Shown: piece by piece, positions 55,847 through 59,734 of the stretch
How positions within the stretch are numbered: the first letter of the stretch is position 1
Layout of the letters: each line of letters starts with the position of its first letter
The notes under the pieces: model-generated
The model's database searches: none
The model's input: the letters and a program-made list of their open reading frames with translations, nothing else
What the model was told of the DNA's origin: nothing
Program-made: the position numbers and the translations under genes
DNA from: a virus
Taxonomy: Duplodnaviria; Caudoviricetes
Length of the DNA: 64,000 nt
Virus record (IMG/VR): IMGVR_UViG_3300046318_000439
Location: 96,001-160,000 of that record
Strand: one strand, 5' to 3'

Positions 55847-57337
55847 CTATACTGATAATTTTTTGTGTTTGTAATGCTCTACAAATTTGATGAAGTTGTT
55901 CTCATATGGTTTTCTCGTGTAGTCGGTGAGGAATAACTTTTTATCGAGTGTAACTTGATCCCCATTATCTTCACACATGATTGATGATAGAGCAAGAGCA
56001 TCGATCACTCGCATGTTGAATTTTCCAACTTTATATAAATCATATAGTGATTTTGTCCACACATCAGCTTCATAAATTGTCATGTGTTCATTTTCCCATT
56101 GAAGATAATGTCCTACTGTATCTTCTTCTGGTGATATGATCCGATGGTTGCCACTTCCATCTTGCTGTTGTTCTCGTACTTGCATGTATCCATGTTCTGC
56201 GTAGTTTTTTGACAAGTAAGAATTCTTGTCATTTTCTTCTGCTACGATTTCTAATACTTCACTGTGGGCATAAAGCGGATGCCATTCATCTCGTACCCAT
56301 TCATAGGTAGAGTTAAGACTCTCCATCGTTTCGTGTGGGAGTCCAGCAATGAGGTTGATAGTTGGTCTATACCGATGACCAACACGTTCAGTGAAAAAGT
56401 CACGTACTTCAATTAGGCCTGCCTTAACGCGAGCAGGACCCATACCTTTTCCAATAAATTTTGCTGATCGAGCATTGAAGCTTTCTATGCCATAGAATTG
56501 CCCAAGCATACCCATGCGCAACAACTCTTCACGATCCAATTTACGAGATATTAATAGATCGGCCCGAATAAATCCTGTAAACCATGGTTTAAAAGATAAC
56601 GTATCCACGACGTCAGCAAACTTTGTAATCTTTTCAGTTGTGTCATTGAATGTATTGTCTGTGATTACATAGTTCGATATACCAAACCTGTCATGCGCAT
56701 CCATCAATTGCTCATATGCACTTTCCGAACTACGTGTAGCATCGAAGTTGGCATTCCTAATAGGGAAATTACAAAACGCACAATCGAACTTACAACCCCT
56801 TGCAAACTCTATCGATCCCCACTCGCCAGGAATTATAAAATCTCTATTCTCATACTTGATCATAGGATTCTTCCATGGAGCTGCGGGATAGTCGTGCATT
56901 GTTTCTATTACACAAGTACCTTTTACGACCTTAGTCTTTGGAGCTACACCGTTACTAAACTTATATTTGAGAATTGCGTCAAGAGCATTTTCTCCATACC
57001 CAGCAACAAAGTAGTCAATATAATCAAGATGGAATGGTTCGAATTGGCCGCCCCCTATTAGAACGATATCTGGATATGTTTTTTTAATATACAAACAAAA
57101 TTGTTCTAAAAGAGTTTTCCTTGTTGTGAAACTGTAGATGAATGAGAAACCAATGAATTTAGTTTCAGATGTGATGCGCGAATGGAGGAGAGCAATCAAC
57201 TCATCGAATGTCCAGTATTCGAAAAAATCAATAACCTCTGCATCCCACCCCTGCTCGCGCATATAGGTTGCCATGCGATGAGAACCAGGACCTCTATAAC
57301 GACTTCCATCGTTAATTGATATCATTAAACAATGCAT
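55847..57337 (-). CDS. B12-binding-domain radical SAM enzyme
   Basis: ARGCKFDCAFC (CxxxCxxC); N-terminal GFSF...IGGG...GYGE region; DNTFN and GIES. Confidence 0.85.
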   Translation of the reverse strand: MHCLMISINDGSRYRGPGSHRMATYMREQGWDAEVIDFFEYWTFDELIALLHSRITSETKFIGFSFIYSFTTRKTLLEQFCLYIKKTYPDIVLIGGGQFEPFHLDYIDYFVAGYGENALDAILKYKFSNGVAPKTKVVKGTCVIETMHDYPAAPWKNPMIKYENRDFIIPGEWGSIEFARGCKFDCAFCNFPIRNANFDATRSSESAYEQLMDAHDRFGISNYVITDNTFNDTTEKITKFADVVDTLSFKPWFTGFIRADLLISRKLDREELLRMGMLGQFYGIESFNARSAKFIGKGMGPARVKAGLIEVRDFFTERVGHRYRPTINLIAGLPHETMESLNSTYEWVRDEWHPLYAHSEVLEIVAEENDKNSYLSKNYAEHGYMQVREQQQDGSGNHRIISPEEDTVGHYLQWENEHMTIYEADVWTKSLYDLYKVGKFNMRVIDALALSSIMCEDNGDQVTLDKKLFLTDYTRKPYENNFIKFVEHYKHKKLSV

Positions 57338-57338
57338 A

Positions 57339-57929
57339 TTAGGCAGTTTTGAACCCCACAGCTCCACCTTCTGCTTCAATACGCTTAATTACATCCTCAA
57401 ACAGTATAGGCGCAAAGTCTGGTAGTTGCTCTACGCTGACGTTATGATATCTAGTATCAATCTCATCACCATATAGAACCTCTCCTGTCTTTGCATCAAC
57501 ACCTCTTGGCTTCATAACTCTATTAGAATGTAAGTGGCCGTGAATGTTAACACCAAAGCGACCTAAGCTATCAGAGTGAATAGGAATATGGCTTAGGATC
57601 ATTCCGTTCAATATGTGGTAGGCACGAAGCTCCCGGAAGTATTGTCTGTATTCATCGTCTCGGAAGATATCATGATTACCGCGGATCAATACCTTATCAC
57701 CATTGAGACGAGCTAATGTAGGCAATGCTTTACGATTAATCACAACATCCCCTAAGTGATAAACCTTGTCTGTAGGCTTAACTCTCTCGTTCCATGCTTT
57801 GATCATATCCTCATCCATCTCGGCAGGATCGTCCCATGGACGAAGTTTCGTAACGCCATCGCTACGTGTGAAGCGGCAAACGCCAGTGTGACCAAAGTGC
57901 GTATCGCTTACTAGAAATACTGACGGCAT
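57339..57929 (-). CDS. Calcineurin-like phosphoesterase
   Basis: SDTHFGH, HLGD, GNHD, SHIP and HGHLH. Confidence 0.9.
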   Translation of the reverse strand: MPSVFLVSDTHFGHTGVCRFTRSDGVTKLRPWDDPAEMDEDMIKAWNERVKPTDKVYHLGDVVINRKALPTLARLNGDKVLIRGNHDIFRDDEYRQYFRELRAYHILNGMILSHIPIHSDSLGRFGVNIHGHLHSNRVMKPRGVDAKTGEVLYGDEIDTRYHNVSVEQLPDFAPILFEDVIKRIEAEGGAVGFKTA

Positions 57930-58042: not shown

Positions 58043-58126
58043 TGGTGGAGCATCCTGGGATCGAACCAGGCATGTCTAAGACGGCGGATTTACAATCCAC
58101 TGCATCACCATTGATGCTTCTGCTCC
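58043..58126 (-). tRNA. trnY: tRNA-Tyr(GTA)
   Basis: Cloverleaf, long variable arm, encoded CCA; one acceptor-stem mismatch. Confidence 0.9.
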
Positions 58127-58352: not shown

Positions 58353-58775
58353 CTATCCATACATTTTTAATCCTTTTGACTTCCGTCCATTGCCCATATT
58401 CTTGGCTCCGAAAGTTTCAGATTGACTGTCGCAGTTGGGGCATATCAAACGAAAATTCGAAGGGGCATTGTTTGAAGCATCCCCATCTATATGATCTACC
58501 CACAATCGAATTGGTTTATTGTTCCACTCCGTGATACTACATACAGTACATTTATTACTGAATCGCTTCACAAGAATTTCATAAATGTCTCTTCTCGTTG
58601 TAAGCTGGCCAGCATCAAATAGCTTTGTTTTCTCTTCCATTACCAAGACATGCTTTTGTTCTGCTTGACATTTATTACTACAATACTTGTGGTTGTAGCT
58701 ATGGCCTTTGAATTTAATGTCAACTCCACAACCACAACACTTATACACCTTATCTTTTACACCCTTATAATTCAT
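58353..58775 (-). mobile_element. Free-standing HNH homing endonuclease
   Basis: CxxC zinc motifs; VDHIDGDASNN...LICPNCD. Confidence 0.85.
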
Positions 58776-58851: not shown

Positions 58852-58938
58852 TGGTGCTGACCATAGGATTCGAACCTACGTTGGGATTACTCCGCCTGAT
58901 TACAAGTCAGGTGCCTTCAACCGCTCAGCCAAGTCAGC
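58852..58938 (-). tRNA. trnT: tRNA-Thr(TGT) with a long variable arm
   Basis: GCTGACT/GGTCAGC acceptor; CCTGA-CTTGTAA-TCAGG anticodon arm; 15-nt variable region; CCA. Confidence 0.8.
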
Positions 58939-59500: not shown

Positions 59501-59529
59501 ATTATACCTATGTAGCGTTTTAACGTCAA
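59501..59529 (-). promoter_or_regulatory. Sigma70-type promoter inside the tRNA cluster
   Basis: TTGACG-17-TATAAT; a GATAAATA late box follows at 59448-59455. Confidence 0.7.
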
Positions 59530-59536
59530 CACCATA

Positions 59537-59653
59537 TGGGTACTCTCTGTGGTGCTTGAACCCACGATAGCCCTACTCTTCCTTGGCATAAAGTATGACT
59601 GGTCGACTTTGCAACTCTATGTTTTATTTCCAAGTGTAGCTACTCAGAGAGTA
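59537..59653 (-). ncRNA. 117-nt tRNA-like RNA
   Basis: 8-bp acceptor, T-arm and CCA, with a long irregular stem in place of the D and anticodon arms. Confidence 0.65.
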
Positions 59654-59659
59654 TTCATA

Positions 59660-59734
59660 TGGTACACCGTAGGAGAATCGAACTCCTCTTACCTGCGTGA
59701 AAGGCGGGTGTCCTAACCGATAGACGAACGGTGC
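59660..59734 (-). tRNA. trnE: tRNA-Glu(TTC)
   Basis: Canonical cloverleaf, CTTTCAC loop, CCA. Confidence 0.93.

What the first reader, a model, noticed from the sequence alone, without database searches (positions are those of the whole stretch)
59537..59653. tRNA-like RNA with an acceptor and T-arm but no D or anticodon arm
Seen in sequence: TACTCTCT/AGAGAGTA (8 bp) plus C-CCA, and a T-arm GTGGG-TTCAAGC-ACCAC. The middle 80 nt form one long irregular stem: GTAGC/GCTAT, TAC/GTA, CTTGG/CCAAG, an AAATAAAA bulge, CATAGAGT/ACTTTATG and a loop of about 19 nt. It begins 6 nt after the tRNA-Glu CCA. Established: T4 tRNA clusters yield stable RNAs C and D of unknown function, and tmRNA and Y-like RNAs also mimic the tRNA top half. 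Inference: a tRNA decoy for anticodon nucleases, synthetases, RelA or EF-Tu, or an uncharacterised adaptor.
Basis: partly seen in the sequence, partly recalled or inferred. Interest (0 to 1): 0.7.

Follow-up and report, generated by a model that had tools for sequence, protein, structure and literature searches.

The report
Phage tRNA-like RNA with self-pairing loop
The 117-base stretch is one member of a large, unannotated family of small RNAs in the tRNA gene rows of uncultured freshwater phages. Members keep a tRNA's acceptor and T arms but replace the rest with a long arm whose tip always carries a self-complementary six-letter word, so two copies probably pair tip to tip.

Summary
On the minus strand (59653-59537), 6 nt after tRNA-Glu, lie an acceptor-like helix, a T-arm-like hairpin and a long arm. 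It is not a chance fold. A covariance model built only from distant relatives finds it (47.6 bits, E 5e-9). More than 100 IMG/VR loci and over 60 metagenome variants share the architecture, with compensatory changes in every helix (92.5% of cells paired against 32-49% when partners are slid). Rfam 15 and ARAGORN report nothing. Cultured phages gave no blastn match, and the motif-pattern hits in 185,579 bacterial genomes were all rejected by the model.

- The 3' CCA is not a family trait (3 of 45). In this window it lies inside an outer helix that also pairs with the CCA of tRNA-Glu.
- The tip loop holds a hexamer that changes between lineages (GUCGAC, UCUAGA, CUGCAG, CCGCGG, CUCGAG, ACCGGU, UCCGGA, GCCGGC) yet stays self-complementary. 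That is the signature of a kissing-loop homodimer.

The function is unknown. My best reading is a tRNA top-half mimic made by the tRNA-processing machinery. Earlier notes of this scan describe analogous tRNA-chassis RNAs in other phages, but none has a sequence resembling this family.

The parts
59660..59734 (-). tRNA-Glu(UUC), the upstream neighbour. Its 3' ACCA forms part of the outer helix.
   Evidence: ARAGORN; Rfam tRNA model, 50.6 bits.
59656..59665 (-). Outer helix, 5' strand: (GU)ACCAUAUG. It overlaps the 3' end of tRNA-Glu.
   Evidence: Read from the sequence. It pairs with 59529-59538 as 7 Watson-Crick pairs, then A-U and two G.U pairs. Flank helices of 6 bp or more occur in 62% of 84 members against 15% of shuffles.
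59645..59653 (-). Acceptor-like helix, 5' strand: UACUCUCUG.
   Evidence: All 9 pairs show compensatory changes; 96.9% of cells are paired.
59639..59643 (-). P2, 5' strand: GUAGC. A possible D-stem analogue.
   Evidence: Pairs with 59567-59571. Covariation shown.
59635..59638 (-). Invariant UACA, the 5' side of the conserved internal loop.
   Evidence: Invariant in alignments A3-A6. It is kept in L112, which escapes the search pattern.
59630..59634 (-). P3, 5' strand: CUUGG.
   Evidence: Pairs with 59582-59586. 100% of cells are paired, with compensatory changes.
59614..59621 (-). P4, 5' strand: CAUAGAGU.
   Evidence: Pairs with 59587-59594. The tip hairpin covaries across the family.
59595..59613 (-). 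Apical loop, 19 nt.
   Evidence: Unpaired in the minimum-free-energy and centroid folds.
59602..59607 (-). Self-complementary hexamer GUCGAC in the apical loop. This is the proposed kissing-dimer site.
   Evidence: At the same loop position, other members carry UCUAGA, CUGCAG, CCGCGG, CUCGAG, ACCGGU, UCCGGA or GCCGGC.
59587..59594 (-). P4, 3' strand: ACUUUAUG.
   Evidence: The homologue L135 keeps the helix with changed letters.
59582..59586 (-). P3, 3' strand: CCAAG.
59572..59581 (-). Conserved 3' side of the internal loop: GAAGAGUAGG. GAAGA and the final GG are invariant.
   Evidence: Alignments A3-A6. The GG was not forced by any search pattern.
59567..59571 (-). P2, 3' strand: GCUAU.
59550..59564 (-). 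T-arm-like hairpin: UGG(G)-UUCAAGC-(A)CCA.
   Evidence: Two stem pairs are always paired and covary (GC, AU, UA, CG). The outer pair is weak and the pair next to the loop is purine-purine. The loop letters U, C and A of UUCRA are invariant.
59541..59549 (-). Acceptor-like helix, 3' strand: CAGAGAGUA.
59537..59540 (-). The CCCA tail. CC faces AA in a 2x2 internal loop, and CA lies inside the outer helix.
   Evidence: Read from the sequence. Not conserved.
59529..59538 (-). Outer helix, 3' strand: CAUAUGG(UGU).
59501..59529 (-). Sigma-70-like promoter, TTGACG-17-TATAAT, directly after the element. It would serve the next ORF (59431-59000).
   Evidence: Consensus scan, 11 of 12 matches. This is a consensus match only.

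Best explanation
The stretch is a gene for a small non-coding RNA of about 110-120 nt. It belongs to a large family, not found in Rfam 15 or the papers searched, that occurs only in uncultured, mostly freshwater phages and sits inside their tRNA gene rows.

Shown by the data:
- The RNA closes with an 8-9 bp acceptor-like helix that meets a short T arm carrying a UUCRA T loop. Together these reproduce the 12-13 bp upper arm of a tRNA.
- A third helix, P2, leads into an invariant internal loop (UACA opposite GAAGA...GG).
- Beyond that loop comes a variable arm that ends in a loop carrying a self-complementary hexamer.

Inferred:
1. The RNA is transcribed together with its neighbouring tRNAs. The tRNA-maturation enzymes cut it out: RNase P at the 5' side and exonucleases at the 3' side. 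In this window the precursor also forms an outer helix with the CCA end of tRNA-Glu.
2. Two molecules pair through the palindromic loop to make a two-headed particle.
3. That particle acts in trans as a mimic of the tRNA top half. It would serve as a decoy or scaffold for a factor that reads the acceptor/T-arm elbow rather than the anticodon. Which factor that is remains unknown.
For: Family membership:
- Model R1 was built from 36 subtype-B sequences that do not include the window. It hits 59538-59654 on the minus strand at 47.6 bits, E 5.4e-9.
- Model R2 scores the window at 105.6 bits.
- There are 102 family loci in IMG/VR.

Structure:
- In A4, 95.7% of cells are paired, 20 pairs change on both sides, 0 of 500 shuffles reach this, and slid controls give 32-45%.
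- In the raw MAFFT alignment A5, 85.4% are paired against 35-53% slid.
- In A6, 92.5% are paired and 26 of 26 pairs show compensatory changes.

Context:
- 91 of 102 loci have tRNAs on the same strand, with a median of 11.
- 62 have a tRNA within 20 nt downstream and 29 within 20 nt upstream.

Self-complementary loop:
- At one loop position the family carries eight different perfect 6-mers.
- In a sample not selected on the loop, 59 of 62 arms hold a Watson-Crick palindrome of 6 nt or more, against 26.9 expected (P < 2e-4). Among cluster representatives the count is 8 of 9 against 3.8 expected (P = 0.005).
- Among the members that lack GUCGAC, 7 of 11 have one against 1.7 expected (P = 0.0004).
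- A 6-nt palindrome cannot fold back on itself, so its partner must be a second molecule.

Absence from known catalogues:
- Rfam gives nothing at E <= 10 or on six related loci.
- Cultured phages give no blastn match.
- The 12 pattern hits in bacterial genomes are all rejected by R2.

Precedent: ROOL and GOLLD are phage RNAs encoded 'often near tRNA islands' that self-assemble through kissing loops (PMC12286853).
Against: - Nothing here shows that the RNA is expressed or processed.
- The 3' tail is mostly NCCU or NUCU, not CCA, so tRNA-like 3' maturation is an assumption.
- In subtype A, which includes the window, the T stem has only 2-3 Watson-Crick pairs plus a purine-purine pair, so it departs from a true T arm.
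- Phylogenetic non-independence weakens the palindrome statistics. Only 9 clusters remain at under 80% similarity.
- Three related loops have only a 4-bp CCGG core or need G.U pairs.
- The outer helix seen in 62% of members fits a purely cis processing role just as well.
- No partner protein was identified. The phage itself lacks L7Ae, a CCA-adding enzyme, Ro60 and RtcB.
Confidence: 0.6

Rival explanations
1. A cis-acting processing or insulating element of the tRNA transcript. The long closing helix (acceptor plus outer helix, about 18-19 bp with an internal loop) would be a site for RNase III or another nuclease. It would separate tRNA-Glu from the downstream mRNA, or transiently mask the tRNA's CCA. 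The excised piece would have no job of its own.
For: - The outer helix includes the ACCA of tRNA-Glu.
- Flank helices of 6 bp or more occur in 62% of members against 15% of shuffles.
- In the closest relatives, L003 and L004, and in many other loci, unrelated inserts sit after the same tRNA-Glu inside similar long closing helices that begin at the CCA.
Against: - 38% of members have no outer helix and sit in the array with ordinary tRNA spacing, for example the L123 type.
- A mere cleavage site does not explain the invariant UACA / GAAGA..GG loop, the T loop, or the maintained palindromic tip across more than 100 loci.
Confidence: 0.15
2. A small mobile or recombining RNA cassette, MITE-like or spread by homing, that inserts after tRNA 3' ends. 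Its conservation would reflect spread rather than a function for the phage.
For: - Members lie next to many different tRNAs: Ser, Glu, Lys or Leu upstream, and Met, Gly or Cys downstream.
- The window's closest relatives carry a different insert at the same site.
- The flanks form inverted repeats of the CCAUAU...AUAUGG type.
- HNH-like ORFs lie within the array.
Against: - The inverted flanks covary rather than keeping one terminal sequence. That points to an RNA helix, not a transposase site.
- No target-site duplication and no single-copy 'empty site' was seen.
- The element occurs once per genome here.
- Internal helices evolve by compensatory change, which requires selection on the RNA fold.
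- Mobility and function are not mutually exclusive.
Confidence: 0.1
3. A decayed tRNA gene, or an ordinary tRNA carrying an intron or insertion.
For: - An acceptor helix and a T loop are present.
- It lies in a tRNA row.
- tRNA genes score weakly against the family model.
Against: - Neither ARAGORN nor the Rfam tRNA model hits it, even at E <= 10.
- There is no anticodon arm in any of more than 100 members.
- The non-tRNA parts are the most conserved and they covary. A pseudogene would not show this.
Confidence: 0.02
4. A reduced relative of tmRNA or of a YrlA-type Y RNA. In other words, a tRNA-like domain serving ribosome rescue or a Ro60 protein.
For: A three-way junction of acceptor, T arm and one long helix resembles the tRNA-like domain of tmRNA. 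Earlier notes of this scan report tmRNA-like and Ro-linked RNAs in other phage tRNA islands. Those notes are leads only.
Against: - ARAGORN finds no tmRNA, and Rfam finds no tmRNA or YrlA match.
- The third acceptor pair is not G.U, and there is no tag frame or pseudoknot.
- The phage genome has no TROVE/Ro60 gene.
Confidence: 0.03

Closest known systems
Bacteriophage T4 stable RNAs rnaC (species 1, 139 nt) and rnaD (species 2, 119 nt)
   Same: - Both are small non-coding RNAs encoded on the same strand inside a T4-like phage's tRNA cluster, directly after a tRNA, and of similar size.
- T4 rnaC also ends in a canonical T-arm hairpin.
- Function is unknown in both cases.
   Different: - There is no detectable homology. 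The alignment shows only chance identity.
- Model R2 run without filters gives no hit on either gene.
- The T4 RNAs lack the UACA / GAAGA..GG loop and the palindromic tip.
Canonical tRNA and the 8/4 'allo-tRNA' acceptor-branch variant (PMC5389517)
   Same: - An acceptor helix closes the 5' and 3' ends.
- It has a T arm with a UUCRA loop.
- Subtype B has an 8 bp acceptor plus a 4 bp T stem, giving the same 12-bp branch length as allo-tRNAs (abstract seen).
- It lies in tRNA rows with tRNA-like spacing.
   Different: - It has no anticodon arm and no canonical D arm.
- CCA is not conserved.
- tRNA models do not recognise it.
Kissing-loop dimerisation elements such as the HIV-1 DIS hairpin (from my own knowledge)
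   Same: A 6-nt self-complementary word sits centrally in a hairpin loop, flanked by A-rich unpaired bases. Self-complementarity is kept while the word itself changes between lineages.
   Different: - The loop is larger (12-19 nt against 9 nt).
- The setting is a phage small RNA rather than a viral genome.
- Dimer formation has not been shown.
ROOL and GOLLD RNAs of phages and prophages (PMC12286853)
   Same: Both are phage-encoded, lie near tRNA islands, have no known function, and have self-assembly through kissing loops supported by covariation.
   Different: - ROOL and GOLLD are 500-800 nt and form 8- to 14-mer cages.
- This family is about 115 nt, carries a tRNA-like module and has one self-pairing loop, so a dimer is expected.
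- Rfam gives no ROOL or GOLLD match.
tRNA-like domain of tmRNA
   Same: It has a three-way junction of acceptor helix, T arm and one long helix, with conserved purines placed where they could contact the T loop.
   Different: - It has no G3.U70, no tag reading frame and no pseudoknots.
- It is not found by ARAGORN or Rfam.

Membership tests
Canonical tRNA (Rfam RF00005) | Acceptor helix formed by the 5' and 3' ends | tested here: met
   The helix is 9 bp in the window. All 9 pairs show compensatory changes and 96.9% of cells are paired.
Canonical tRNA (Rfam RF00005) | T arm: a 5-bp stem closed by G53-C61, with a 7-nt UUCRANN loop | tested here: inconclusive
   The loop consensus is met (UUCAAGC in the window). 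Subtype B has a canonical 4-bp stem with G-C closure. The window's subtype has 2-3 Watson-Crick pairs and a G.A or A.G closure.
Canonical tRNA (Rfam RF00005) | D arm with G18-G19 | tested here: inconclusive
   There is no canonical D arm. However, P2 plus an invariant GG placed 0-1 nt before its 3' strand occupies the equivalent place. A tertiary contact cannot be tested here.
Canonical tRNA (Rfam RF00005) | Anticodon arm with a 7-nt loop | tested here: not met
   It is absent in every member. The centre is a long arm with a 12-19 nt loop.
Canonical tRNA (Rfam RF00005) | 3' CCA, encoded or added | tested here: not met
   CCA is encoded in tRNA register in only 3 of 45 members. Post-transcriptional addition cannot be tested here.
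Canonical tRNA (Rfam RF00005) | Recognised by tRNA models | tested here: not met
   ARAGORN gives no call. Rfam gives no hit at gathering score or at E <= 10.
T4 rnaC / rnaD | Sequence and structure homology to the T4 genes | tested here: not met
   The alignment shows no real similarity. R2 without filters gives no hit at E <= 10 on either gene.
T4 rnaC / rnaD | Encoded in a T4-like phage tRNA cluster on the tRNA strand | tested here: met
   The window encodes RegA, clamp-loader and DNA-polymerase homologues. The element lies 6 nt after tRNA-Glu. The T4 layout is shown.
T4 rnaC / rnaD | Accumulates as a stable processed RNA | not testable with these tools
   No RNA run that was laid holds the element.
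tmRNA | G3.U70, tag reading frame, pseudoknots | tested here: not met
   The third acceptor pair is C-G. ARAGORN finds no tmRNA and Rfam gives no hit.
YrlA / Y RNA with Ro60 | Match to the YrlA model and a Ro60 (TROVE) gene in the genome | tested here: not met
   Rfam gives no hit. PF05731 is absent from the 202-kb genome.
Kissing-loop dimerisation hairpin | Self-complementary word of 6 nt or more exposed in a hairpin loop | tested here: met
   GUCGAC lies at 59607-59602, in a loop that is unpaired in the minimum-free-energy fold.
Kissing-loop dimerisation hairpin | Self-complementarity kept while the word changes among homologues | tested here: met
   Eight different perfect hexamers occur at the same loop position. 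Counts are 59 of 62 against 26.9 expected, and 8 of 9 cluster representatives against 3.8 expected. Among members without GUCGAC, 7 of 11 against 1.7 expected.
Kissing-loop dimerisation hairpin | Dimer observed | not testable with these tools
   This needs native gels, SEC or a solved structure.
Kink-turn | Canonical helix, 3-nt bulge, then tandem sheared G.A / A.G pairs | tested here: inconclusive
   CCAG-GAA-GA opposite A-CUGG fits the bulged strand and the first G.A pair. The second pair would be A.C rather than A.G. The comparison with Kt-7 is from memory. The phage has no L7Ae gene.
ROOL / GOLLD | Match to the Rfam models | tested here: not met
   Only tRNA hits were returned on the window and related loci.

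The most novel reading that the evidence does not exclude
The family is a new class of phage RNA: a tRNA 'top half' (acceptor, T arm and elbow) fused to an arm that dimerises through a kissing loop. The result would be a symmetric two-headed tRNA mimic, made by the host's own tRNA-processing enzymes. It would titrate or bridge a factor that reads the tRNA elbow or acceptor end, such as a tRNA-directed defence enzyme, a maturation or repair enzyme, or the ribosome. That would add a non-decoding layer to the known role of phage tRNA islands in countering host attacks on tRNA.
Probability: 0.2. Interest if true: 0.85.

Novelty: new variant of a known kind. Interest (0 to 1): 0.7.

Why it matters
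Phage tRNA islands are increasingly seen as counter-measures to host attacks on translation, yet the non-tRNA RNAs within them (T4 rnaC and rnaD, ROOL, GOLLD) have had no known function for decades.

This finding defines a compact family of about 115 nt that is very common in freshwater phages. It has a clear three-way-junction fold, an invariant internal loop, and a simple prediction of homodimerisation that can be tested directly. Its small size makes it much easier to study by biochemistry and structure determination than the giant ornate RNAs.

The family also shows that phages reuse the tRNA upper body as a chassis for other RNA functions. Finally, it gives annotators a model for a gene that current pipelines leave blank.

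Tried and rejected
1. Folding energy of the single sequence was not significant (z = -1.23).
2. blastn and nhmmer of the element against 80 loci fetched through RegA found nothing. Homologues came only from scanning for the neighbouring tRNA-Glu and then from motif patterns.
3. An exact-pattern scan on the window's own T arm found nothing.
4. Rfam returned nothing for the element at gathering score or at E <= 10, on the window or on related loci.
5. Neither cultured-phage blastn search found the family.
6. The bacterial-genome pattern scan gave 12 hits, all rejected by model R2.
7. T4 rnaC and rnaD showed no homology.
8. For expression, no RNA holder of the element was listed. The four freshwater metatranscriptome contig sets that were laid cover only the tRNA-Glu part, which comes from other organisms. 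This says nothing either way about expression.
9. The looser pattern returned mostly false positives, which were filtered by eye and by the covariance models.
10. Minimum-free-energy folds of the central arm were unreliable for delimiting the tip loop, because palindromes pair spuriously. A stem-finding script and the alignments were used instead.
11. The phage genome has no L7Ae, CCA-adding enzyme, Ro60 or RtcB gene, so no partner was suggested.
12. Literature searches found no description of this family. The catalogue of 8,495 IMG/VR candidate RNAs (PMC10690425) could include it anonymously, and I could not check that.

Full report
WHAT IS THERE

The window is part of a complete 202-kb phage genome with direct terminal repeats, taken from IMG/VR. 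Nearby genes are T4-like: RegA, a clamp-loader subunit, dCMP deaminase and DNA polymerase. The genome is found in freshwater metagenomes.

All tRNA genes of this region lie on the minus strand. Read on that strand, tRNA-Glu(UUC) ends with its CCA at 59662-59660.

- an acceptor-like helix, UACUCUCUG with CAGAGAGUA
- GUAGC with GCUAU
- CUUGG with CCAAG
- an AAAUAAAA bulge
- CAUAGAGU with ACUUUAUG around a 19-nt loop
- a hairpin with a UUCAAGC loop

The fold energy alone is unremarkable (z = -1.23). ARAGORN and Rfam 15 report nothing here, even at E <= 10.

IT IS A MEMBER OF A LARGE FAMILY

Direct similarity searches failed at first. I then scanned IMG/VR for the neighbouring tRNA-Glu, which gave one close homologue (L135) and one distant homologue (L123). 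These share three short motifs: CUACAC, AAGUCGAC and AGGAAGA. A pattern built from those motifs found 87 viral stretches.

The family has two subtypes:
- Subtype B has a 7-bp P2 helix and a fully canonical T arm, UUGG-UUCGAUU-CCAA.
- Subtype A, which includes the window, has a 5-bp P2 helix and a T arm of the form GUGGa-UUCAAGC-gCCAC.

Covariance model R1 was built from 36 subtype-B sequences only. It finds the window at 47.6 bits, E 5.4e-9. Subtype-A model R2 scores the window at 105.6 bits. In all, 102 IMG/VR loci carry a member.

The family was not found outside uncultured phages:
- Neither cultured-phage blastn search gave a match.
- The motif pattern hit 12 places in 185,579 bacterial and archaeal genomes, and model R2 rejected all of them.
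- The phage carries a single copy.

THE FOLD IS UNDER SELECTION

| Alignment | Cells paired | Pairs changed on both sides | Controls |
|---|---|---|---|
| A4, subtype B, MAFFT | 95.7% | 20 of 31 | 0 of 500 shuffles reach this; slid partners 32-45% |
| A5, subtype A, raw MAFFT, some 5' ends misaligned | 85.4% | 23 of 26 | slid partners 35-53% |
| A6, 44 distinct sequences of both subtypes aligned to R2 | 92.5% | 26 of 26 | slid partners 32-49% |

The A6 alignment was fitted to the model and so leans towards it. The two MAFFT alignments do not have that bias.

The supported helices are the acceptor helix (9 pairs), P2, P3, the tip hairpin P4, and two to three pairs of the T stem.

CORRECTIONS TO THE tRNA PICTURE

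1. The CCA tail is particular to the window's lineage. L135 has CUCA. Most members have NCCU or NUCU. Only 3 of 45 have CCA in tRNA register.

2. In the window the helix does not stop at the acceptor. After a 2x2 internal loop (AA opposite CC), the sequence ACCAUAUG pairs with CAUAUGGU just downstream of the element. That ACCAUAUG includes the discriminator base and the CCA of tRNA-Glu. Such outer helices of 6 bp or more occur in 62% of 84 members, against 15% of shuffled flanks. Others, such as the L123 type, sit in the array with plain tRNA-like spacers.

3. In subtype A, the T-stem pair next to the loop is purine-purine.

4. The label 'no D arm' may be too strong. P2 starts 1-2 nt after the acceptor helix. 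An invariant GG lies 0-1 nt before the 3' strand of P2, which is where G18-G19 precede the D-stem 3' strand in a tRNA. This GG was never part of a search pattern. P2 then joins the T arm through only 2-3 nt. One reading, which is inference, is a tRNA that has lost its anticodon and variable arms and has gained a long arm inside its D loop.

THE NEW FEATURE: A SELF-COMPLEMENTARY TIP

The apical loop holds GUCGAC in the window (59607-59602) and in most members. Members that the models found without that word carry another six-letter palindrome at the same loop position: UCUAGA, CUGCAG (often extended to UUCUGCAGAA), CCGCGG, UCCGGA, ACCGGU or GCCGGC. The metagenome sample added CUCGAG.

The stems that close the loop also covary, for example CUUGC/GCAAG, CUCAC/GUGAG and UUCAC/GUGAA.

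A few related loops are imperfect. GCCGGU and AUCGGU need G.U pairs, and GCCGGA keeps only a CCGG core.

Statistics:
- Among 11 loops without GUCGAC, 7 hold a Watson-Crick palindrome of 6 nt or more, against 1.7 expected (P = 0.0004).
- In the metagenome sample, whose search pattern put no constraint on the loop, 59 of 62 arms hold one, against 26.9 expected (P < 2e-4).
- After clustering at under 80% similarity, 8 of 9 representatives hold one, against 3.8 expected (P = 0.005).

A six-letter palindrome cannot pair with itself inside one loop. Maintained self-complementarity through complete changes of sequence therefore points to pairing between two copies, that is, a kissing-loop homodimer. 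A palindromic DNA operator is a weaker alternative. The word always sits at the tip of an RNA hairpin that covaries, and it changes freely between lineages.

THE INVARIANT INTERNAL LOOP

UACA lies opposite GAAGA...GG, between P2 and P3. This loop is kept even in L112, which has changed the adjacent pairs. The strand CCAG-GAA-GA opposite A-CUGG resembles the bulged strand of a kink-turn. The second tandem pair would be A.C rather than A.G, so I rate this only as a hypothesis (my own knowledge, not tested). The phage has no L7Ae-type protein.

CONTEXT AND LIKELY BIOGENESIS

Of the 102 loci, 91 have tRNAs on the same strand, with a median of 11. A tRNA lies within 20 nt downstream in 62 loci and within 20 nt upstream in 29. 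The neighbouring tRNAs vary: Ser, Glu, Lys and Leu before the element, and Met, Gly and Cys after it.

In the window no terminator-like site follows the element. A consensus-like promoter for the next ORF starts immediately after it.

From this I infer that the RNA is co-transcribed with tRNAs and released by the tRNA-maturation enzymes. This has not been shown. No RNA data set that I could lay holds the element.

WHAT IT IS NOT

- It is not a decayed or intron-bearing tRNA. The non-tRNA parts are the most conserved, and they covary.
- It is not tmRNA or YrlA. The models do not match, there is no G3.U70, and there is no Ro60 gene.
- It is not a relative of T4 rnaC or rnaD, although it occupies the same kind of place and T4 rnaC also ends in a T arm.
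- It is not ROOL or GOLLD. Those RNAs do set a precedent for phage RNAs near tRNA islands that self-assemble through kissing loops (PMC12286853).

VERDICT

The tRNA-mimic reading is partly right: the top half holds, the conserved CCA does not, and an anticodon-nuclease decoy is unlikely.

The most likely mechanism is a processed, dimeric mimic of the tRNA top half acting in trans on an unknown elbow- or acceptor-reading factor. The fold and family membership are well supported. Dimerisation is supported by covariation only. The function is inferred.

The rivals are a purely cis processing element and a mobile cassette. The second is consistent with a separate observation: the closest relatives carry a different insert at the same site.

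Earlier notes of this scan describe tRNA-chassis RNAs and tRNA look-alikes with self-pairing loops in other phages. None resembles this family in sequence. I used those notes as leads only.

Noticed in passing
L003:6641-6766 and L004:7229-7349; also L100, L111, L131, L133, L139, L156, L159, L169, L183, L194: In the window's closest relatives the same tRNA-Glu is followed by a different conserved RNA of about 100-125 nt. Its shared blocks are GUAAGC.., ..GUAACU.., ..UAGCAAAUAGUGC. It is enclosed in a long closing helix that starts at the tRNA's CCA. Rfam gave no match for L003 at E <= 10. z = -3.9 for L003.
   Followed up: partly
L102, L106, L110, L113, L114, L122, L180, L182, L191, L199, L202 (directly after tRNA-Glu): A third, longer insert class begins CCAUAUUAAAAUACAUUGGGUUACCAAUUCCAGUAGGUGAC... 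and follows the same tRNA-Glu in many viral contigs. L106 gave only tRNA hits at Rfam gathering score.
   Followed up: no
L236:3996-4200 (and upstream of most subtype-B members): An ORF-free stretch of about 200 nt precedes subtype-B members in many contigs. It ends in the conserved GGUGUGAGUAGCUAGACAC and contains AGGACUCGAC. It is probably another unannotated structured RNA.
   Followed up: no
window 58046-58126 (-): The Rfam tRNA model finds a sixth tRNA here (33.5 bits) with a long variable region and a GUA (Tyr) anticodon. ARAGORN misses it. A Limnohabitans phage tRNA-Tyr matches this region at 84% identity.
   Followed up: partly
window 58852-58938 (-): An 87-nt tRNA with a long variable arm (class II body) is called Thr(UGU) by ARAGORN. 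Thr tRNAs are normally class I, so its identity and decoding deserve a closer look.
   Followed up: no
window 59501-59529 (-): A near-consensus sigma-70 promoter, TTGACG-17-TATAAT, lies directly after the element. It overlaps the end of the outer helix and precedes a 143-aa ORF (59431-59000) with no Pfam match.
   Followed up: partly
window 58353-58775 (-) and 55847-57379 (-): An HNH-like ORF lies between tRNA genes. A B12-binding radical-SAM protein and a metallophosphatase lie just beyond the tRNA row.
   Followed up: no
L099, L112, L138, L193, L087 (after tRNA-Glu): Further unrelated inserts of 60-130 nt sit inside closing helices of the CCAUAUUGAAACACA...UGUGUUUCAAUAUGG type. The site after this tRNA-Glu seems to be a general slot for exchangeable structured-RNA cassettes.
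   Followed up: no
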